A stretch of 64,000 nt of DNA from Lingula anatina (taxonomy: Eukaryota > Animalia > Brachiopoda). Shown here in pieces: positions 1 through 14,200 of this stretch (the stretch's first letter is position 1; every line of letters begins with the position of its first letter). Both the position numbers and the translations under genes were made by a program. Below the pieces are notes generated by a model. It worked only from the letters and a program-made list of their open reading frames with translations. It ran no database searches and was not told the DNA's origin. The stretch covers positions 26,416,848 to 26,480,847 of the forward strand of contig CM120643.1 of NCBI GenBank assembly GCA_051362555.1. The letters run 5' to 3'.

Positions 1-140
1 GAAAAGTGGTTTCATGGGAAGCTTGAGGGTGGGCGACGTAGAGCGGAGGAGCTATTGAACGAGTACGCAGTCCTCGGCGACGGCACATTCCTAGTTCGAG
101 AAAGCGACACATTTGTCGGTGATTTTTCCCTCTCCTTTTG
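1..140 (+). CDS. PLCG1: PLC-gamma nSH2 N-half exon, variant A (5' end outside window)
   Basis: [47 protein letters not shown]; donor TG|GTAAGT at 140/141, phase 2. Confidence 0.95.
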
Positions 141-3100
141 GTAAGTCCCAGCGCCCTCGTTGTCTCCCCTTTCTTCCTAGCATGGCATGGAGTTTGACAC
201 TGTGTATTAATGTTACCCTTAGGTTAGGGAATTGCATTTTTCCGAAGAGTGGTACCATGACTATATTCGAGGAAACGGGTCACGCCAGACCGCTGAGAGC
301 CTCTTGATTCAGTGGGGACCTGCTAAAGGCGACGGAACTTTCTTGGTCCGCCATAGCAAGGAGTTTGTGGGTAGTTTTACTCTGTCGTTTTGGTATGTAT
401 AGGCGTTTGATTGCATGGTGAATTTGATGAAGTGAGTTATTTAGAAAGTTAGATGACACTTTATTGCTTGCACCATTTGGTGAGTCCGGATTTAGAGTGG
501 AATGTGTCAGTCACTGTGTGCTGCACTCTTTTTAAAGACCACTTAATATAGCTGTCTTGTATGCCGTAGTTTAATATATTGACTGAAAACTTGTTTTGTA
601 GTCCATGTATTACATTTTGTTTTGTTTTTGTTTTTAATTTTTGAAGTGCTGTGTCCACTTCACACACTGATGTATTGTTTGTTTCATGAAACACCATGTG
701 ACAAAAGAGCACAATTTAATTGTTTACTTACATATTGATATTGGTTTTTGTTTAAAGTAAAAGACTCTAATCTGCTTATTGCTTCTTGTTAGATATAATC
801 TAAGTAAGTTGCTCATGTGTACTGTGTGTGATCTTATATGAAGTAACAGTCTGAATGTAAGAATTATAACCTACAATAATCACTCATGTTTCTGAAGTCG
901 CCTATTTTAAGTTGTAAATTATAAAAAGAAATGTAGTTGCAAAAAGTTTTTGGCTCACCTGTCAGGAATAACTAACAAAAATTAATTAACCTTAAATTAT
1001 CGGCCTTGTTCAAGCTTATATTAGTGAGTTATTTTTATAATCTAGGGCTTTTGTAATCAAACAGCTGTCATCTTATGATTTATGCTTTCATAAATGAAGA
1101 ATTATGGCAAATAAAAATTATCTCTGTAACACTGTTCACTTCTAAGATTTATACTTTGTTAAGAATCTATACCTGTTAACATCAACTGATAGCTGAGCTT
1201 TAGCTTACTCCACTTAATATTATTGCTATTACCTATTTTATCAATAAATTACCTACTTACATTCTTTGCTGTGTATTTGAGGTATTTCTTGTAATTTATC
1301 TGCTTGTCTTGTATACATTAGTCTTTTTCAATATTTCCTCGAAAAAACTATGGCAGTGTTTCTCTCATTTCTCTTCATCTGATTAACACAAGATGATCAG
1401 TAAAAAGTTCACTAATAATTTCTTCCTCAGGCGTCAGGGGAAAGTGAACCACTGTCGTATCAAGTCCCGTCAAGAGCGCGGCGAGATCCGCTACTACTTG
1501 ATAGACAACGTGCTGTTTGAAAGCTTGTACAGTCTGGTCACATTCTACCGTAATAACCCCCTGCGAAGTCAGGACTTTGAAATGATCCTGGGGGACCCGG
1601 TTCCTCAGCCCCAGAGTCACAAAGGACAGAAGTAAGTTTGCTGTGTAGTATCATAGTTATTTTAATGGTGTTATTGTAATGAGGTAAATGAACCTTTCAG
1701 AGCTAGATTTTCTTGGATTAAAGAGCATTTATTAAAAATTGATTGAATTTTTTAAAAGTCAGATTAATTGTTACTTTTATAAGTTATGCCTGCTTAAGTT
1801 TAAAAATGCGTATTTTGAAAATGATTTTGATAATTGCAATTATGGTTACGTTCACGGGTAGTCATCGGAAGATGGAAAAGAAGATTTACCTGACTAATGA
1901 TGCCATGAAACTTCATAATGTGTATACGTTCTATTTTTCAGGCAGCACCATGAAGGCATTCTTTAAATTTTTTCTGTAGCATATTCTATACACCCTGTAT
2001 ATCAGAGTTTACTGAGGACTTCTATTATCAATAGACCATTGCCATCTCCAGTGACAAGAAATAAGTCACTGGAAATGGCAGATGTATGCTGATAACAGAG
2101 GTTTTACCATACTAGGATGATGTAAATCAAAGACCTTGACATCTTTTTTAAACTCGGAGAACTTTATTTGGGTTTGAACACCTTGAGGACCCTATTTGAA
2201 TTTGGCACCATGAGCCTTCCATTTATATTTTGCAGCTTGAGGGAACCATTTAAATTGGGTACCATGAGAACACTGTTTTTTTTTTTTTTTTGCATCAATG
2301 CATCATAATAAGTTTGTCTATGTTTTAGATGGTATCATGAAGGAATGGACCGCGCCATTGCAGAAGACATGTTAGCACGCATTCCTTTCGACGGAGCTTT
2401 TCTTCTCCGCCACAGTGAATTTGATTCCTCTTCTTACGCCATTTCCTTCAGGTGAAGACAGCCCCTGCACCGTGCAATGGTGCATGTGAATGTGCATTTG
2501 CCGGCATCGTAGAACATTTGCATGACCCAGTTGTCAAGAATTGACAGTTACTTTTGTTATTATTGATACACATACAGTGCATGGTGCCGTGATGATGCAT
2601 TTTTTTTTACAATTTGAATCATTTTAGTACACTGATGGTTGCTGATTTTTGGGAAAACAAAACAAAAACACAGGGGGGGGGGTCTGCAATGAATGAATGA
2701 ATTTCAAATGTGTTATTTTGGATAATTCAAAAACCTGTCCTCTTTTCAGTGTTTAGTACAACTAGATGTTAACTTGAAGCTGACCATATCCTTTCATGTG
2801 CTCATTAAAGCATCTAAGATGTTTCATGTAAGAAATATGTTTTCAAGGATTATAAAAAAAATCAGCTTTCCATAAAACTATCATGGAAATGGCCTGCTAT
2901 GAGTTGACCTAGTACTTATGTTCATTTGGCATGATGTAGGTTGACCAACGTTTGTTTTTGAGTGATGCAAAGCAGTAGAAGATGGATTTCTGTGTGCGGT
3001 GTGCGTGTGTGCATGCGTGCAAAGATGCATGCAATGTAGGAGCACCAATATACTGGAGTTTGTCTCTTTAAAAGAAGAAAAACAAGTCACATCCATCCAT

Positions 3101-6100
3101 TCTCCAAAGTGAAGGGAGCGAGATCATGTCATTTTGTGATTTGTCTTCTATTATTTTGCATGTAGTACTAACCTTTGTTGTTTCTCAGATGGTACCATGA
3201 GGCTCTGTCGCGTGAAAAAGCTGAGGACATGCTTAGTCGTATACGTTACAATGGTGCATTCCTCGTGCGCAAAAGAAATGTCGCAGGCAATGACACCGAG
3301 GCATCCCAATTTGCGATTTCATTTCGGTAAGTGGGATAAACATCCCAGATAGGTATTCCCATTATATATATATATATATATATACTAACATATATGTAGT
3401 TGTTGATGTGCAATCATTAATGTGATATTTGTAGATGGTATCATGAGAATTTAACGCGAGAACAAGCTGAAGACATGTTATGCAGAATTCCATACAACGG
3501 AGCTTATTTGGTCCGGAAGCGAGTAGAAGCATCTGACAAAGATGAGTTTCAGTATGCCATCTCGTTCAGGTAAACGATGAGAAGTTAAGTGCCATCACTC
3601 CGCAGCTTCATATCTCGCCAGCGGCCGGTTTCACAAAAAATCTTTGGACCAGAATTGGTCTCTTTGAGCCCAAATTTTTCTACCTTGCTTTGACTTTATG
3701 TAAAGCAAGTGAAATATTGTATCTTTTGTATATAAAGATGGATTATTTAAACCATAAGAGGCTTTATTTTTGAGAAATATACTACAGATATATTTTGAAC
3801 TGGCGAAGACCAACATTTTCAGCCTGAAACCAGCCCGTGGCCTAGACGCTCATTGGATTTATTATGCTGGTGTTGATTATGTTCATTTTGCTGCTGTTGT
3901 CATGCCTCGCCAGTGTGAAATAGATTGTTTCATCCAATTATTTAGCAAAAAAAAAATTACATGTTTTCGATGAATTTTTCTTCATCTTGTGCCTTTTTTT
4001 GCATTGATGTGAGACATTAAATTTCTGCTTTTTGCTTGAGTAATTTAAGAACTGCTTGTTAAAAATCTAATGAATGCAATCATTATGGAGTATTTCTCAT
4101 TAAAAAAAAACATCTCTGATTCTGTATGTGTGCCTTGTAGTATTCCAATTTTTATGAATGTTATTTTTTGGAGATAAAATAACACCTGAAATAGCTCCAC
4201 AGCCTTGGTTGCATATGTTATCTATGTAATACACCAAGCTAAGCTGACACTTACTGCATGAACGCTATAAGCTTTTTATTTGTGAACATAGAAGCTAGAT
4301 TGTTATGAGACACTGAGTAGAGATTCCCCCTGCAAGTTTGTTGTGTTGCTCATAAGCCAATTTCTCTTTGTAATGATTTTTAAATGAAATGATTCCTGTT
4401 TTTTGTACAGTTGAAAGATTAAGCATTGTGGTATTTCATTGCAATTATTGTGGAAAAATTACTGTTTGAAATGACATTTGAACACATGATTTTATTTTTG
4501 AATGACGTATCTTTGTGTTAAGTAATGGTTACCAAAATGATGTTTTTGAATAAATTGAAAATTATTAAAATCTGAAAACAATTAACAAAATAAAATAAAA
4601 TGTAAAAATGAATTAACTTGTACATAAAGAGTATAACATGCATTTCAGTCTATTTTCATTACTATTCAACTAAATGTTAATGGCTTATTTGCTCTTATAT
4701 TTGCACAGAGCTGAGGGAAAAATCAAGCATTGTCGTATCAAGTTGGAAGGTCGTCTTTTCACCATCGGCAACGCCCAGTTTGAGAGCCTTTTGGAATTGG
4801 TGCAGTATTACGAAAAGAACCCTCTCTATCGCAAGATGAGGTTAAAGTACGCTGTCAATGCTGAGCTAGTCTCACAGATAGGAATGGTAGGAAGACATGA
4901 GATTATCATTGTTATTATAGTATGACCAGTTTAAAGAGCCTTACCACCTGGAGTCATAAAGTTCAGTTTTATACAGTTTATATATGACAAAAAATAATAA
5001 AACTTTATAAGCAAGTTTTGTTGTATTGACTTTAGCCTGTGATGGAATAATATTGAAGAAAAAAGCATTTTATATTTTAATGTTATACTTAAATGCTTAA
5101 TATTATTCACTTGAATGATATGACATTCATGCTTCACTTTTTAATATTTTCTTACAGCATTGGCAATATGTGTCTGGCTTTTCATGCAGTCACCTTGGCT
5201 TTTTTTCTGTATTTTCAGATTGCCACTTTCCTTAAGTTATGAGGATAACAGGTGTGCTTGATTTAGTTTCAGGTTTTATCTTGATTTTAGCACTGTTCGG
5301 AACATGAAGACTAGTGGTGAAAATTTTCTTAAGAAATAACAAAAGAAAAGCTGCTCAGGGGCTTCTTAGGTCATCATCAAGGTTTACACTGTTTTGACAG
5401 CCAGTTTTGATGTGAAATCACCTACATACATTTAGAACATTGTAGTCATTTCTTTCTTTCTGGAAAACCTACGAGACCCTCTAAATCTGCCCTTGTTTTG
5501 ATTGCAAGAACATCTGCCGGGGTCCAATGAAATTTCAAACACTGTTCCTCTGTGTAAGCCATTTTTTAATAATTAGCTAAGCTTCTCTTGACAGGAGCCA
5601 GATGCCAATGCCATCTATGGTTCTGCAGATATCTATATGAATCCTAATGACTATATGTCTAAGGTAATAAGCCCTAGGTTTCCATAGCAACTGCTGCATG
5701 GCCCACCACCTTGGCTTATTTTTTGCTGACAGATTTTTTATTTTGGATTTTTTTCTCTAGTCTTAGATATCCAGGGTTGCTGTTCTGATCTTGCCTCTTT
5801 CTCTCTCATTTCTTTTGTTCAAGAAACACTGGCTTACAGCTTTAAAGATTTACAGAGTTCAGATATCTGTAACAAAATTAAACTGGCTCGGCCAAACAAA
5901 ACGTATACGGACACTTTTTAAACTGATGTAAAGAGAGAGAGGGGCAAGATGAACATTCCTTATCAAGCTCATGGGAGAAAAGAACAACATTTAACAAAGC
6001 AGAATTCTGAATTTTGACTGACAAGAGTTTTATTTTAAGTCCAAATTAAACTGCGATTTCCTGCTTTGTTAACATGTTTTATCTCCTTGCATAGTGAATG

Positions 6101-8201
6101 GTTTGATTACAGGGCAAGAGGCATTTTTCTTTTTCTTTGATTTTGAAATTAGCAGATTTATAGAAAAGAGCAATAAATTTGTGTTTGTTTTGATTGCCCC
6201 CCCCCCCCCCCCCCCCCCCCCATCAAATCCTATCAGTGCATGCCACAAAGTTCGTACATTTAAGCTTTTCCTTTACCAAGCAATGCCCTGGTCCCTCCCC
6301 CCCCTCCCCTCTCTGGAGGCAACACCCAAAACAACACACTTTCAGGTGAAATTTTTATTACCCCTTGGTTACAGTGGCTTTCACAGCAGAGAACACCATT
6401 CCTGAGTAATCCTCTTGATTTGCATGGCGCAAAATTACATATTGGCAATTGTAGCCCTCTTGTGATTTTTCACAGTGCATTTTTTTCCTGCATGACATTT
6501 TTTCCTTTCATTTTCCCCCCGTCCTTAGGACCCGCAAATGGAGTCCATTTACGAAGGTAACTCGTATGCTGATCCCAACGAGTTGGAGTTTATCACAAAT
6601 GTGAGTTGGTTTTGGTGCTTTTATCTCCCGAGTTTTTGTTAACGGAGAATAGGGGTGCTGTTTTCAGCTTGTATCTTTGCTTGGTTTTCCAATTTAAGAT
6701 ACACTAGACGATGTTTTTGTTATTCTTTTGCTTGATTTTGCTCTTGGGCTGATTTTAGCTGTAAATCTCAAAGTGAAAATGTGACATAAAAATGATTTTG
6801 AAGAGACTAAGGTATTTTGGTATTACATAAAGAAAGATAAGTTGTACATAAATATAAATCAAGAAATGCATACATAACATACATAGAAATGCATATCTAG
6901 TTTGAATATCAAATATTATTTATTAACAGTATCATTGGTTGAACCTAAATCTACATTATTATTCCACTGTGTTCAAGGTCAAAGTGAAGGCCCTGTACGA
7001 CTATCACGCACAGCGAGCAGATGAGCTGTCCTTCTGCAAGCATGCCATTGTCAGCAATGTCCATAAGCAAGATGGTGGATGGTAAGACTTTTGTAGATAT
7101 ATTGTTCTTTTTAAGCATTGATTTGTCATCACATTACCTGTGATTTGAAATTTTTATGGAAGAGAAACTTTGCTAAAATTACTTTTGAGTTGTATTCATC
7201 TATACACTCTAAAAATTTGTCATCAAAATGAAACAGTGCATGTCATGTACCAATACGGCCATGAAGCAAAATTTCCCCATATACATATAGAATGTTGAAC
7301 TGTTAGATTCCTGTTAAGTACAAACTTAATTTACAGCACAAAAAATGAGTAATAAATTGATTAAGATTATAATTATTCAAGACTGCCGGCCACTGAGTAC
7401 AGTGTGTCTTCTATTTGACATTCCTTCAAATTATCTCACCACCAGGTGGCGTGGTGACTATGGTGGAAATAAACAAATGTGGTTCCCATCAAATTATGTG
7501 GAAGAGTTGGAGATATCCGAGGATTCTGATTCGACGCCCCTGGGCTCACTGCAGAAGGGCATGCTGGAAGTGACCTGCTGCATTGTGGGTAAGTGCATGA
7601 CGTACAGATGAATTAAGTTAAGGGTTTGGATATATCTGGATATTTGGGTATTGTATTTATGTTCCCAAGACCCCCCACTCCCCCTCAAAGACACATGCAT
7701 CTTCAACACTTGGATTTTCCAGATTTTTTCTAAATGGTCCACTTTCATCTCTGTTTATATCGTGTTGTAGAAAAATCAGAAGTAAATTAATAGGGAAAGT
7801 GTTTGGATTTGATAGAACCTAAGGCATGCTGTATTGTCCTTGGTTTGTAAAATGTTAGAGAAAAAGAAACAGGTGAATTCTTTGACTGGTTAGCTATCCT
7901 GCAGGTTAAAGATATCACTTGACCACCTGTGCATGTTTCACAAAATGAGTTTTGGTTAAAAACAGAAATAATATTATTTAAACAATGAAGCAATACCTAA
8001 TACTGTTGACTTGCTCTTTTCAGATAAAATAGAAGGTGGCAAGGGCTCAAAGCAGTATGTATTCCGTGTGATCTCCAACGGCACGCCTCTAGAGATTGCC
8101 GCCAGCAGCGAGGAGGACATGTTGGACTGGATGAAGGCCATCAAGGATTGTGCAAATATGGCGGAACTTAGGGTATGGTGGCCCAAAAAGTGCCAGTTGG
8201 A

Positions 8202-8251
<50 letters not shown>

Positions 8252-11200
8252 ATTAGCCTACACTTTCATTTTAATATGCTAGGAACTTTAAGATATTTCA
8301 CTTGAAGTTACACTTCATCTTTGTAATTAATAGTGTAAATTTATTTATTTATTTCAGAGTAAAGAGCATGCAGACCAAGAGAGAGCTTTAAGGATTGCCA
8401 AAGAATTCTCTGACATAATAGTTTACTGTCGCTCAGTGCCTTTTAATGAAAGCAGTAAGTTATACAAGGAGACAGAAATGTACTCTAAGTTGTCAAATCT
8501 ACTTCCTAAGTCTTAGTTCTTTTGAGGAGGACAAAATACCATTATAGTCTAGTAATTATCAATTGACAGACATTTTGGATTAAAATATTTGTTTATATAT
8601 TACTGTATATATATATAACCTCAAACTTTAAAAACCTTTAATACAATGGAAAATTACTGACATCCACACAGAGAGAGAGAGAGAGATAGAGAATCCAGGT
8701 GTTGGAGAGATAGACCCTTACTAACACACCTAGAGATGTTGACCTATGGATACCTAATAATACAATGCCACCATTTTGTGATATACATTACCCATCATGT
8801 TCTCTCTCTCCCACAGATGTCCCAGGGAACTACTATGATATACATTACCCATCATGTTCTCTCTCTCTCCCACTCAGATATCCCTGGGAACTACTATGAT
8901 ATACATTACCCATCATGTTCTCTCTCTCTCTCCCACAGATATCCCAGGGAACTACTATGATATACATTACCCATCATGTTCTCTCTCTCTCCCACTCAGA
9001 TATCCCTGGGAACTACTATGATATACATTACCCATCATGTTCTCTCTCTCCCACTCAGATATCCCAGGGAACTACTATGATATACATTACCCATCATGTT
9101 CTCTCTCTCTCAGATATCCCAGGGAACTACTATGATATACATTACCCATCATGTTCTCTCTCTCCCACTCAGATATCCCTGGGAACTTTTGTGATATACA
9201 TTACCCATCATGTTCTCTCTCACTCAGATATCCCAGGGAACTACTATGATATACATTACCCATCATGTTCTCTCTCTCTCAGATATCCAAGGGAACTACT
9301 ATGATATACATTACCCATCATGTTCTCTCTCTCTCAGATATCCCAGGGAACTACTATGATATACATTACCCATCATGTTCTCTCTTACTCAGATATCCCA
9401 GGGAACTACTATGATATACATTACCCATCATGTTCTCTCTCTCCCACAGATATCCAAGGGAACTACTATGATATACATTACCCATCATGTTCTCTCTCTC
9501 CCACAGATATCCAAGGGAACTACTATGATATACATTACCCATCATGTTCTCTCTCTCCCACAGATATCCCAGGGAACTACTATGAAATGTCCAGCTTCTC
9601 AGAGACCAAAGTGGAAAAATATGTGAACAAACTGAAGGGCCAGACCTTCATGAAGTATAACCAAAACCAGCTGAGCAGGATTTACCCCAAAGGTCAAAGA
9701 ATCGACTCTTCCAATTATGACCCCACCATGCTGTGGATATGTGGGTCACAGATGTGTGCCCTAAACTACCAGACACCAGGTGAGTTCATTGCTTGGGGAG
9801 GGGGGAAGAGTTGGTGTCAGAGAGAAGGGAGCAGGATATTGGGCTCCGTAAGGGATACTGTTCTCAGAGTGGGGAAGGGGTGCCAAGGAGGGAGTTACTG
9901 TTCATGTGATCATAATTTTTAGTGGAAGTACATAATTATCAGTCACCAAATGGGTTAGATTGTTGGTCTCCAAGTTGGGGATTCAGCAGAGTTGAACATT
10001 GGGGATGGTTGGGGATTGCTTTTAATTTTCAAAATATTTTGAGGCAGCCAGTCCATTGCCATCAAACGTGGCAGACATTACATGTTTTTTTCTTTAACTT
10101 GTAAACTTCAGTTGATGCACACTATGCTTTTACGTATTTCTAATCTCATTTATCCCCTTGTAGATCGTTCTATGCAGCTGAATGAGGGGAAATTCAAACA
10201 GAATGGAAAGTAAGTACAACAATCTTTTATTTATTTATTTATTTTTCATTTTTTTCCCTGTATTAGCAATAATCATGAAGTAGACATAGGTGTTACAAAA
10301 TGGTTGAGGAATGTGGCATTGGGAATGAAGCTCTGTTGTCATTAAGTGTATATAAGTTAGAGGTGTAGATATCTATAAATATTAAATATATTTATTGGCC
10401 TGTTCATCGGTGTAATTGTTTGTAACAGGATATTTAAGTTTATTAAAATATTGAAATATATTCAAATATTAAAAATTAATGGCTTAACAGGTTTTTCCAC
10501 ATGCTAAAATATCATAATGTAACAACAAAGGTGAAAGGACTGTTTATCGGGTTGCTTTGTGATGATGCACAACAGTTCAGTTATATTTATGAGATGTATT
10601 TTTTTTTTTTTTAATTTTTCTAGTCTAGTGGTTATACTCCAAGTTTTCTCTTCTTTTTTAAGGTGTGGTTACATTCTCCAGCCAGAAATCATGCGACACA
10701 TCGACTACGACCCGTTTGACAAACGGACACTTGTCAATGTAGATCCCCTCACAGTAACTCTAACAGTATGTTAACGTTTACAACTGATATTTTAAAATAT
10801 CAAACTTTGTTACATTGAGTAAATTGGTATTTATGACCAATTCTTTTTTAGGCTATTTACAGTAACTGTTGACTTCATCAAATCATAGAAGTTATGTTCA
10901 CTGTTGTAAGATAAAAGGATGGTCTTGAAAGGATTATGATAGTGGGTTTGTTTCAGTTTTTAAAGTTTTGGGTAACATTGGAGTTTAAAACATAAGAGAA
11001 AAAGAGATCACTTTACTTGAGATTACTGGTCTTAGTGAACCCTGTATCTGTCTTGAAGCACTGTAATAATAATTTTGTAAAGTAACTCTCTGTGGAAACC
11101 AGCTTTAAGATACATATTTTTAATATTTTGTGATTTATTTACTAATTTATGTACTAAATTTTCAGATCATAGGAGCCCGTCACTTAGTCAAATCTGGCCG

Positions 11201-14200
11201 CGGGATTGCCAGCCCATTTGTAGAAGTGGAAATATGTGGAGCGGAATTTGACAATGGAAACAAATACAAAACTAGAACAAAGGGTAAGAAAATAAGTTGT
11301 ATGAAATGAAAGTTCAGTGTACCTACAACTGCAGGTACGCTGAACTTTCATTTCATACAACTTATGTAAAAATACTCTGAATTAAAGGTGTCATTTTAAA
11401 AACCAAAATTTTAAATGATTCATCTGTCAATTGATACTATGATTTTGGCAAATCTTGTTTGTTCAGCACTTTGATCATGTCATACCAAGGCCCATAGAGT
11501 GAAGTATGACTTGTCCTCTAAATAAACTACATTATGTAGACATGTATGTTTGTACTAGTATATATGTAACTAATGAGTGGACAGTGGTTTCAAGTCAATG
11601 TAGAATGACTTGTATGAGTTTTACATAGAATTTTGGTCCAGGCCCAGTGAATCACTTGTCTTGTTGATTATATTAAGAACAACTGGTCATGAAGAAATGC
11701 TATGTTAGATATAACATTGACCATGTATCTTCTCTGTAGTGGACAATGGTTTTAACCCAGTGTGGAATGACCAGTGTGAGTTTGACATCATCAACCCCGA
11801 GGTGGCCATGATAAGGTTTGTGGTCCAGGATGAAGACATGTTTGGGGACCCTAACTTCCTCGGTCAGGCTTCTTTCCCAGTCAAGAGCATCAGACCAGGT
11901 AAGTTTCTGATCAGAAGATTGTCTGGGCTGATATGAATGGATTATATGAATAGCATTATTTTGCAATAGCCAAGTTGCCAAAAAATTGGGGTAAAATTTT
12001 ATTTTTCAATTTTGTGTAAAAAAAATGTTGTAATAAATTGTTCTAGTTTTTAGAAAAATATTTTAAATTTTCTTAAGCACATGTATATTTAAGGATTTTA
12101 TTGGGATTTCAAATACAAGTTTGAGCATAGATCTTGTAATTCTGATTATGAAAGATACTTCCAAAACATGCTTGACCGTCCAAATTGGTAATTCTGATAT
12201 CACAGATATATTATAAAATAACAGTCCTTTTAGTTCACTGCAGGAAAAGGTCCTTTAGTATAGTTATGTAAAGGCCTTTCTATTCTAAGAGGATATCTTT
12301 TGTTATGCCCTTTACTTGATCCATGCCAAAACTTTATAAATAAGTATGTTGTCATTTGTATCAACATTTGAATTATAATATGTGATATAGAATTCGGTTA
12401 CCGGTCAGTCCCACTGACCAATGGCTACAGTGAACCCCTAGAACTGTATTAAGTATAATATTTATATTACGTTACCAGGTTACCGGTCAGTCCCACTGAC
12501 CAATGGCTACAGTGAACCTCTAGAACTGTATTAAGTACAATACATATATTATGTTACCAGGTTACCGGTCAGTCCCACTGACCAATGGCTACAGTGAACC
12601 CCTAGAACTGTATTAAGTATAATATTTATATTATGTTACCAGGTTACCGGTCAGTCCCACTGACCAATGGCTACAGTGAACCCCTAGAACTGTATTAAGT
12701 ATAATGTTTATATTATGTTACCAGGTTACCGGTCAGTCTCACTGACCAATGGCTACAGTGAACCCCTAGAACTGTATTAAGTATAATATTTATATTATGT
12801 TACCAGGTTACCGGTCAGTCCCACTGACCAATGGCTACAGTGAACCCCTAGAACTGTATTAAGTATAATATTTATATTATGTTACCAGGTTACCGGTCAG
12901 TCCCACTGACCAATGGCTACAGTGAACCCCTAGAACTGTATTAAGTATAATATTTATATTATGTTACCAGGTTACCGGTCAGTCTCACTGACCAATGGCT
13001 ACAGTGAACCCCTAGAACTGTATTAAGTATAATATTTATATTATGTTACCAGGTTACCGGTCAGTCCCACTGACCAATGGCTACAGTGAACCCCTAGAAC
13101 TGTATTAAGTATAATGTTTATATTATGTTACCAGGTTACCGGTCAGTCTCACTGACCAATGGCTACAGTGAACCCCTAGAACTGTATTAAGTATAATATT
13201 TATATTATGTTACCAGGTTACCGGTCAGTCCCACTGACCAATGGCTACAGTGAACCTCTAGAGCTGGCTGCCCTTCTGGTCCGGGTGGACATGAGGAACC
13301 CAACTGTATGTATTGATTTTATAATATTCATCATATCTACTTTTAAACATGAGAGTTCTAATGCTATGAAGTCCAGTTCAATTTAAGATAAACACTTGGT
13401 TTAGTAAACACTAATTTCAGTAAATAGTAGTCACAGCTGTAAAAAGAACAAGTCTCTGGAATGTATAATATTAGGTTCAGCTGAACCTAGCAAGTCTTCA
13501 CTGCAGACACAATTAAAATTTTTATGTCATCCAAAAAAACATATTCTTTCTTTTCCTTTCCAGCAAAGTACAGATAGTGACATCTATGCCTGTATTCAAG
13601 ACCTACGAGATCGTTCCCAGGAGCTTCACTACCAGATTGCGGAGTCAGAGCGAGTTGGAAACACAAGAGAAGCAGAGGAAATAAAGAACAAACTGAAACA
13701 AACCGAGGAAGAGCTGATTCAGAGAACAGATGAGAGGCATCGGATCAACAAACAAAGGTTTTAGTTCTTACTATATATTTATTTATTTATTTTAATGTGT
13801 TTATTTTCATTTTAAATGATTCTGGATGAATTATGGCACTAACAGGTAGATGTTGAACAAGGTTGCAGTGGATAAAATACCTGGATAAAGGGAATTACTG
13901 ATTATTTATTTGTTTTGTGTCAAACAAAACTGAACAGCAAAAAATTGTATATTTTAATGTACGAACACTTATTAAAATGTGCGCACTAAATTTGTTGTGC
14001 GGTGGTAAAAGCTACTTCAGAAATGTAAAAATGTAGCCTGAATAGAAAAAGTCCAGTCCCTAAATTATGAAGTTGATGTGGTGTCCCATGTATCTTCTTT
14101 ATACAAAAGATTGTATTTTGAATATTATATTCAATGATTCTGTTATAAATTACACAAAGTACTCATTATTTTGTGCTTGGAACATGAAATGAATGCATGT

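What the first reader, a model, noticed from the sequence alone, without database searches (positions are those of the whole stretch)
2329..3569. Three cSH2 phosphotyrosine-pocket exons with a conserved FLVR arginine but different BC loops
Seen: [41 protein letters not shown] and [22 protein letters not shown]. The alphaA Arg and betaB Arg are kept in all three, while the loop after betaB differs in length (exons of 123, 138 and 135 nt) and charge. All are symmetric phase 2-2, so reading frame or NMD cannot enforce exclusivity. Inference: an active mechanism is needed. B and C are separated by only 108 nt, containing (TA)n and a TACTAAC about 57 nt after the B donor.
Basis: partly seen in the sequence, partly recalled or inferred. 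Interest (0 to 1): 0.75.

Follow-up and report, generated by a model that had tools for sequence, protein, structure and literature searches.

The report
Swappable SH2 pocket exons in PLC-gamma
In this invertebrate's phospholipase C-gamma gene, three duplicated exons each encode the phosphotyrosine-binding half of the enzyme's on-switch domain; RNA reads show them used one at a time, and the choice likely tunes how easily the enzyme is switched on in different cell types.

Summary
Exons A (2329-2451), B (3189-3326) and C (3435-3569) are frame-symmetric duplicates encoding the first half of the PLC-gamma cSH2 domain. Eight RNA runs give 99 single-inclusion junction reads (B 66, C 26, A 7). No A-B, A-C, B-C or skip-all joint is listed, though the tool lists a joint only from 3 reads per run, and A's upstream joint is not listed either. 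B:C use differs between runs (p about 0.005). A has Ser, and B and C have Arg, at the position of PLCG1 R696, a pTyr783 contact. A chiton has both exon types as separate gene models, so the split is probably old within Lophotrochozoa. The gene also duplicates the nSH2 first half and the pTyr linker. UGCAUG (Rbfox) motifs cluster between A and B (6 against 0.9 expected), one of them 3 nt before B's branch-point consensus. Simple steric blocking (62 nt, criterion under 50) and docking-selector pairing are not supported. The likeliest mechanism is protein-driven mutually exclusive splicing, which is inferred and untested. This is a known kind of event; my searches found no report of it in this gene.

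The parts
1..140 (+). nSH2 first-half exon a (its start lies before the window), major form
   Evidence: joint 140>1431: 11 reads in 4 runs; loose ends in X8 and X9
228..392 (+). nSH2 first-half exon b, duplicate of a, 87-nt intron between them; acceptor inferred
   Evidence: 70% DNA identity over 71 nt; joint 392>1431: 3 reads in X7; similar peptide in an Owenia gene model
1431..1631 (+). constant exon: nSH2 second half and SH2-SH2 linker
2329..2451 (+). cSH2 first-half exon A: 8-residue BC loop, Ser at the R696 position, ancestral type, minor form
   Evidence: A>4709: 7 reads; upstream joint not listed; used in public model P0008
2452..3188 (+). A-B intron with six TGCATG (2481, 2519, 2578, 3010, 3026, 3157) and B's branch-point consensus TACTAAC (3166)
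3189..3326 (+). cSH2 first-half exon B: 13-residue loop, Arg at the R696 position, major form
   Evidence: 1631>B: 36 reads; B>4709: 30 reads
3327..3434 (+). 108-nt B-C intron: 6-bp hairpin 3332-3347, (TA)n tract, TACTAAC at 3383
3435..3569 (+). cSH2 first-half exon C: 12-residue loop, Arg at the R696 position
   Evidence: 1631>C: 12 reads; C>4709: 14 reads
4709..4886 (+). constant exon: cSH2 second half (betaD, EF and BG loops)
5595..5663 (+). cSH2-SH3 linker exon L1 with Y775/Y783-like tyrosines, phase 0-0; TGCATG at +32
   Evidence: used in P0008; no joint listed, low depth only
6529..6600 (+). linker exon L2, duplicate of L1, major form; TGCATG at -40 and -108
   Evidence: 4886>6529: 9 reads; 6600>6978: 5 reads; loose ends

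Best explanation
Three tandem-duplicated exons encoding the phosphotyrosine-pocket half of the PLC-gamma cSH2 domain are spliced in singly in the reads seen, with the choice likely set by RNA-binding proteins (Rbfox at UGCAUG sites) and likely tuning how tightly the domain grips its own phosphorylated linker. Shown: the exons, their expression, the single-inclusion joints, run-dependent B:C ratios and the motif layout. Inferred for A versus B: where Rbfox is active, it would bind the UGCAUG 3 nt before B's branch-point consensus and block B, while sites at +30, +68 and +127 after A would strengthen A's weak donor. Where Rbfox is low, B's consensus branch point and donor would win. The same layout flanks linker exons L1 and L2, so A and L1 would be favoured together. 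Weakest step, B versus C: U1 at B's donor, a hairpin starting at +6, the fold-back-prone (UA)n tract and the TACTAAC site in a 108-nt intron would make the B donor and C's poor acceptor hard to engage together. Inferred for the protein: A keeps two of the three pTyr783-contacting arginines plus a Ser and a short loop, while B and C keep all three plus a long flexible loop. The surfaces that clamp the C2 domain are in the constant exon, so the swap would change activation threshold or kinetics rather than the basal lock.
For: 99 single-inclusion joint reads in 8 runs, with no in-series or skip-all joint listed. Eleven further loose-end reads leaving B read into the constant exon with agreement 1.0 and 0.99. 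X8 has depth 13.8 on B and 0.55 on C; X4 has 0 reads at B positions and 8 at a C position. B:C heterogeneity across runs has permutation p 0.005. Listed read variants are synonymous in 5 of 5 for B, 3 of 4 for C and 2 of 4 for A. Eight chiton models carry the long type (5) or the short type (3), never both. The 12 long-loop exons form one side of a branch among 35 rows, at 92/88, and at 85/83 with the loop removed. TGCATG counts: 6 in A-B (expected 0.92) and 4 in L1-L2 (expected 0.24), each reached by 0 of 2000 shuffles; A-B is the densest 737-nt stretch of the window. PMC2777236 gives the positional rule and the calcitonin -34 and egl-15 branch-point precedents. PMC3532599 names R675, R694 and R696 as pY783 contacts. 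PMC7004563 assigns C2 clamping to the EF and BG loops.
Against: Depth is low, and joints under 3 reads per run are hidden, so a minority of in-series transcripts is not excluded. The 1631>A joint was never listed, and intronic reads surround A in several runs, so part of A's signal is unprocessed RNA. Rbfox binding and its conservation are untested, because no lophotrochozoan orthologous DNA was obtained (one search gave insect-type loci). An apparently constitutive intron (about 7590-8024) also holds 2 TGCATG (p 0.0025). No UGCAUG lies near the B-C junction, so Rbfox does not explain B versus C. Tissues are unknown, and the reads come from divergent individuals (mostly 90-99% alike), so mapping bias could contribute. 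The tree support is below the tool's starred threshold. The chiton long exon keeps Ser. Corals, tunicates and a sponge also have long loops in this place. No affinity data exist.
Confidence: 0.6

Rival explanations
1. Exclusivity is mainly steric or kinetic. Structure shortens the B-C intron below spliceosome spacing, and splice-site strength alone ranks B > C > A, with no tissue-specific regulator.
For: 108-nt intron; hairpin 3332-3347 at pair probability 0.5-0.6; (UA)n tract; the nSH2 pair is also only 87 nt apart; B has the consensus branch point and donor and is the major form.
Against: Donor to branch point is 62 nt, above the <50 nt criterion. Fold z is 0.63. This cannot cover A-B (737 nt) or A-C. 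B:C ratios differ between runs.
Confidence: 0.15
2. Competing long-range RNA pairings (Dscam-type docking site and selectors) pick one exon.
For: Three-exon invertebrate clusters can use this (recalled; the mechanism is mentioned in PMC5740500). Many short inverted repeats exist (139 pairs).
Against: The best shared docking window scored -12.5 kcal/mol upstream (11 of 12 shuffles as good) and -15.3 downstream (5 of 12 as good). The scan was coarse and no covariation test was possible.
Confidence: 0.1
3. The exons are loosely controlled tandem cassettes or near-redundant duplicates. In-series forms occur below detection and are lost by misfolding, and the variants are functionally equivalent.
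For: The listing threshold hides rare joints. The linker exons do occur in series in mollusc models. Gastropod, bivalve and octopus proteins show only the short type, and 4 of 5 annelid and both nemertean proteins only the long type, so either type alone may suffice. A has 2 non-synonymous variants of 4.
Against: Both types are kept in a chiton and here. Variants in B are all synonymous. X8 and X4 show near-exclusive use of B and of C. None of 212 stored full-length proteins had two cSH2 first halves in series, by a rough motif scan.
Confidence: 0.15

Closest known systems
Fyn exons 7A/7B (FynB/FynT)
   Same: Mutually exclusive tandem-duplicated exons in an SH2 signalling protein, expressed by tissue. 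A cited paper title says they modulate autoinhibition (PMC9741552 passages; PMC2119231 abstract start).
   Different: Fyn swaps the end of the SH2, the SH2-kinase linker and the start of the kinase. Here the pTyr-pocket half of the SH2 itself is swapped, there are three options, and the intramolecular ligand exon is duplicated too.
FGFR2 IIIb/IIIc and C. elegans egl-15 5A/5B
   Same: Half-domain swap of a binding domain by mutually exclusive exons, controlled by Rbfox through UGCAUG upstream of the repressed exon and near its branch point (PMC2777236 passages).
   Different: Those are extracellular Ig domains in exon pairs. egl-15 also has a 14-nt intron that bars double inclusion (PMC4165533). 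Rbfox control here is inferred only from motifs.
C. elegans unc-32 exons 4a-c and 7a/b
   Same: A three-exon cluster plus a second cluster in one gene, with protein-driven exclusivity through the order of intron removal (PMC3585155 passages).
   Different: The unc-32 trio is non-homologous and has no UGCAUG in the exon 4 region; it is a different protein.
Vertebrate PLCG1 cSH2 and pY783 switch
   Same: Same domain order; R675, R694 and F706 are kept in all three exons; B and C share the FLVRKR-type motif.
   Different: No such alternative exons turned up for vertebrates in my paper searches. The insect-type loci L002 and L003 have one exon with the same 3' boundary.

Membership tests
Tandem-duplicated mutually exclusive exons | homologous exons of similar length coding the same protein region | tested here: met
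Tandem-duplicated mutually exclusive exons | same phase and canonical splice sites | tested here: met
   phase 2-2, AG/GT
Tandem-duplicated mutually exclusive exons | each exon spliced to both flanking constant exons | tested here: inconclusive
   met for B and C; for A only the downstream joint is listed (7 reads), and the upstream joint rests on model P0008 and on depth
Tandem-duplicated mutually exclusive exons | no exon-joining or skip-all transcripts | tested here: met
   none listed in 8 runs against 99 single-inclusion reads; limited by the 3-read listing threshold
Steric-interference MXE | donor to branch point under 50 nt | tested here: not met
   62 nt to the TACTAAC branch A, branch point predicted
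Frameshift/NMD-enforced MXE | double inclusion shifts frame or adds a stop | tested here: not met
U2/U12 incompatibility MXE | a U12-type donor on one side | tested here: not met
   donors do not match the U12 consensus (consensus recalled)
Docking-selector MXE (Dscam type) | one docking site pairing with a selector at each exon | tested here: inconclusive
   no better than shuffles in a coarse scan
Docking-selector MXE (Dscam type) | compensatory changes across species | not testable with these tools
   no orthologous lophotrochozoan DNA found
Rbfox-regulated MXE | UGCAUG downstream of the enhanced exon and upstream of the repressed exon | tested here: met
   rule
Rbfox-regulated MXE | Rbfox binding and dependence | not testable with these tools
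   needs CLIP, knockdown or a minigene
PLC-gamma cSH2 | SH2 fold with alphaA and betaB Arg within the nSH2-cSH2-SH3 array | tested here: met
   a long-loop natural homologue keeps the fold

The most novel reading that the evidence does not exclude
An ancient lock-and-key splicing switch. One Rbfox-type programme jointly swaps the receptor-docking nSH2 pocket, the cSH2 pTyr pocket and the linker carrying the pocket's own phosphotyrosine ligand (A with L1, versus B or C with L2). This would build cell-type-specific PLC-gamma activation thresholds and would date to the lophotrochozoan ancestor, while echinoderms convergently swap the other half of nSH2.
Probability: 0.25. Interest if true: 0.75.

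Novelty: new member of a known kind. Interest (0 to 1): 0.52.

Why it matters
SH2 domains are usually diversified by gene duplication. Here one gene builds several pTyr pockets by exon swap inside a well-studied autoinhibition switch, which gives a natural series for testing what the R696 position and the BC loop contribute to activation. It also matters for annotation: the public model uses A and L1, which are the minor forms in these reads, and single models per species may hide the alternatives.

Tried and rejected
No genome is held for this window. The run index listed no RNA holder; raw-read runs of the same species label were laid instead. The docking-selector scan and the intron fold were no better than shuffles. 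The TACTAAC count in the window (5) looks like chance level; the two in the cluster fit branch points. The metagenome scan gave 5 insect-type PLC-gamma loci and 2 repeat artefacts out of 7, with no lophotrochozoan DNA, so motif conservation and covariation remain open. The homologue search with nSH2b returned 13 proteins, 12 of them named beetle PLC-gammas with ordinary nSH2. The representative search (top 150 of 2487) added no new double-exon case. Strict pocket-linker coupling is rejected as a rule: the chiton long exon pairs with L1 in 3 models and with L2 in 2, and molluscs that show only the short exon use both linkers and sometimes both in series. Earlier-findings look-ups were empty. 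Literature searches for PLC-gamma SH2 mutually exclusive exons gave no matching title or abstract start. The library omits most subscription papers, and no supplements were read; genome-wide MXE tables could list this gene. No model of the B or C spliced form of this species was made, and no complex prediction was run.
Full report
Gene and observation. The first 14 kb of the window hold the 3' part of a PLC-gamma gene. Its public model P0008 is 57-60% identical to its 39 best hits among the stored proteins, which include annelid, chiton, gastropod and hemichordate proteins, so no close relative was among them. Any combination of A, B and C, or skipping all three, keeps the frame without a stop. 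Each exon encodes betaA-alphaA-betaB-BC loop-betaC, and the boundary falls at the end of betaC (model of the A form, pLDDT 90). Two insect-type loci have a single exon with the same 3' boundary.

Expression and exclusivity. Eight of the nine offered RNA runs were laid, with 6-30% of each run read. Joint reads were 1631>B 36, B>4709 30, 1631>C 12, C>4709 14 and A>4709 7, 99 in total; these are reads, so mates may count twice. No A-B, A-C, B-C, 1631>4709 or 1631>A joint was listed; the tool lists a joint only from 3 reads at 2 starts. Two checks do not depend on that threshold. First, 11 loose-end reads leaving B read into the constant exon with agreement 1.0 and 0.99. Second, X8 has depth 13.8 on B against 0.55 on C, while X4 has no reads at two B positions and 8 at a C position. 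For A, reads at 2344 in X8 (2) and X9 (1) come with zero depth in the upstream intron bin, which fits splicing but does not show it. Intronic reads flank A in several runs, so some A signal is unprocessed RNA. Using distinct starts of the downstream joints, B:C differs across runs (permutation p 0.005; study P2 4:9 against the others 23:3, Fisher p 0.0005, grouping chosen after seeing the data). Tissues are unknown and the individuals are divergent. Among listed read variants (36 rows were not shown), the synonymous share is 5 of 5 in B, 3 of 4 in C, 2 of 4 in A and 20 of 20 in the two constant exons.

What differs in the protein. By the alignment, the exons span PLCG1 residues 668-706. pY783 contacts R675, R694 and R696, and the +1/+3 pockets are F706, L726, L746 and Y747 (PMC3532599, passages). 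All three exons keep R675, R694 and F706. A has Ser at 696 and an 8-residue loop; B and C have Arg and loops of 13 and 12 residues. The EF and BG loops that clamp the C2 domain (PMC7004563, passages) lie in the constant exon. A nemertean long-loop protein is predicted to keep the SH2 fold, with a lower-confidence loop (block pLDDT 63). The inference is that the swap alters phosphate grip and the activation threshold more than peptide specificity or the basal lock.

Evolution. In one search (65 stored rows, 2 missed by the pattern), the short 8-residue loop with Ser appears in 12 of 12 gastropod rows, 4 named bivalves, octopus, and most arthropod and non-vertebrate deuterostome rows, so it is the likely ancestral type. 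A 12-15-residue loop with Arg appears in 4 of 5 annelids, both nemerteans and 3 unnamed proteins. The chiton Liolophura has both types in one set of eight RefSeq models (5 long, with Ser; 3 short), never in series. It was the only species showing both types among the 30 clusters looked up, one of which is the window's own model. The 12 long-loop rows form one side of a branch among 35 (92/88; 85/83 without the loop; few columns, not starred). This fits one early duplication followed by losses or missed annotation. Against a unique origin of loop length, corals, tunicates and a sponge also have long loops. Whether B and C are sisters is unresolved.

Wider anatomy. The nSH2 first half is duplicated too (11 against 3 joint reads), and an Owenia gene model contains both copies stitched together, the only such case among 212 stored full-length proteins. 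The linker with the Y775- and Y783-like tyrosines has two exons. L2 dominates. L1 has no listed joint, but agreement of the loose ends at 4887 falls to 0.88 in X9, the run with the highest A share, which is only suggestive. In the chiton, all 3 short-exon models use L1, but long-exon models use either linker, and several mollusc models carry both linkers in series.

Mechanism. Frame/NMD, U12 incompatibility and the <50 nt steric criterion (PMC5740500, passages) are not met. Docking-selector pairing and intron folding were no better than shuffles. The clear signal is TGCATG: 6 copies in the A-B intron (0.92 expected) and 4 in L1-L2 (0.24 expected), each reached by 0 of 2000 shuffles among 20 introns tested; one other intron has 2 (p 0.0025). 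The layout is parallel in the two introns: +30 after A and +32 after L1, and -32 before B (3 nt from TACTAAC) and -40 before L2. Rbfox enhances exons from downstream and represses them from upstream, in calcitonin by blocking SF1 at the branch point from -34, and in egl-15 presumably likewise (PMC2777236, passages). This predicts A with L1 in Rbfox-rich cells. It does not explain B versus C, where a short structured intron and a weak C acceptor remain the best guess (about one in three). Three-exon clusters can be kept exclusive by the order of intron removal (PMC3585155, passages).

Novelty and verdict. The kind of event is known (Fyn, FGFR2, egl-15; PMC9741552 passages). Six searches (listings and abstract starts, plus passages of PMC7574550) found no report for PLC-gamma, within a library that lacks most subscription papers; no supplements were read. 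My rough odds: real mutually exclusive cluster about 0.9, Rbfox role about 0.55, functional tuning about 0.5, coordinated pocket-and-ligand switch about 0.25. Interest 0.52.

Noticed in passing
P0046, P0193, P0189 versus P0192, P0191, P0188; P0399 versus P0059: Sea urchin and sea star PLC-gamma isoforms swap the second half of nSH2, an SH2 half-swap independent of the one here.
   Followed up: partly
window 8779-9585 and 12396-13266: Tandem arrays (55 nt x14 and 82 nt x10.6) that repeat a splice acceptor plus the start of a PLC-gamma exon; which acceptor is used was not tested.
   Followed up: no
window 2625, 2754, 2910, 3163: TAGTAC occurs 4 times in the A-B intron, of 7 in the window; unexplained, and the last copy overlaps B's branch-point consensus.
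   Followed up: no
window 180-189 and 412: A tandem GCATG pair lies in the 87-nt intron between the nSH2 exons, and a TGCATG lies 20 nt after exon b.
   Followed up: partly
P0008: The public model uses exon A and linker L1, the minor forms in the reads; its cluster holds no B or C isoform.
   Followed up: yes
window 1837-3188: Intronic RNA reads lie on both sides of A in several runs, including poly(A) libraries, suggesting slow or detained splicing around the cluster.
   Followed up: partly
window 2018-2102: A 38-nt inverted repeat (76% complementary, 9-nt loop) in the intron upstream of A.
   Followed up: no
P0128, P0075, P0166: Some bivalve and gastropod models carry a third linker segment or extra basic inserts between cSH2 and SH3.
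   Followed up: no
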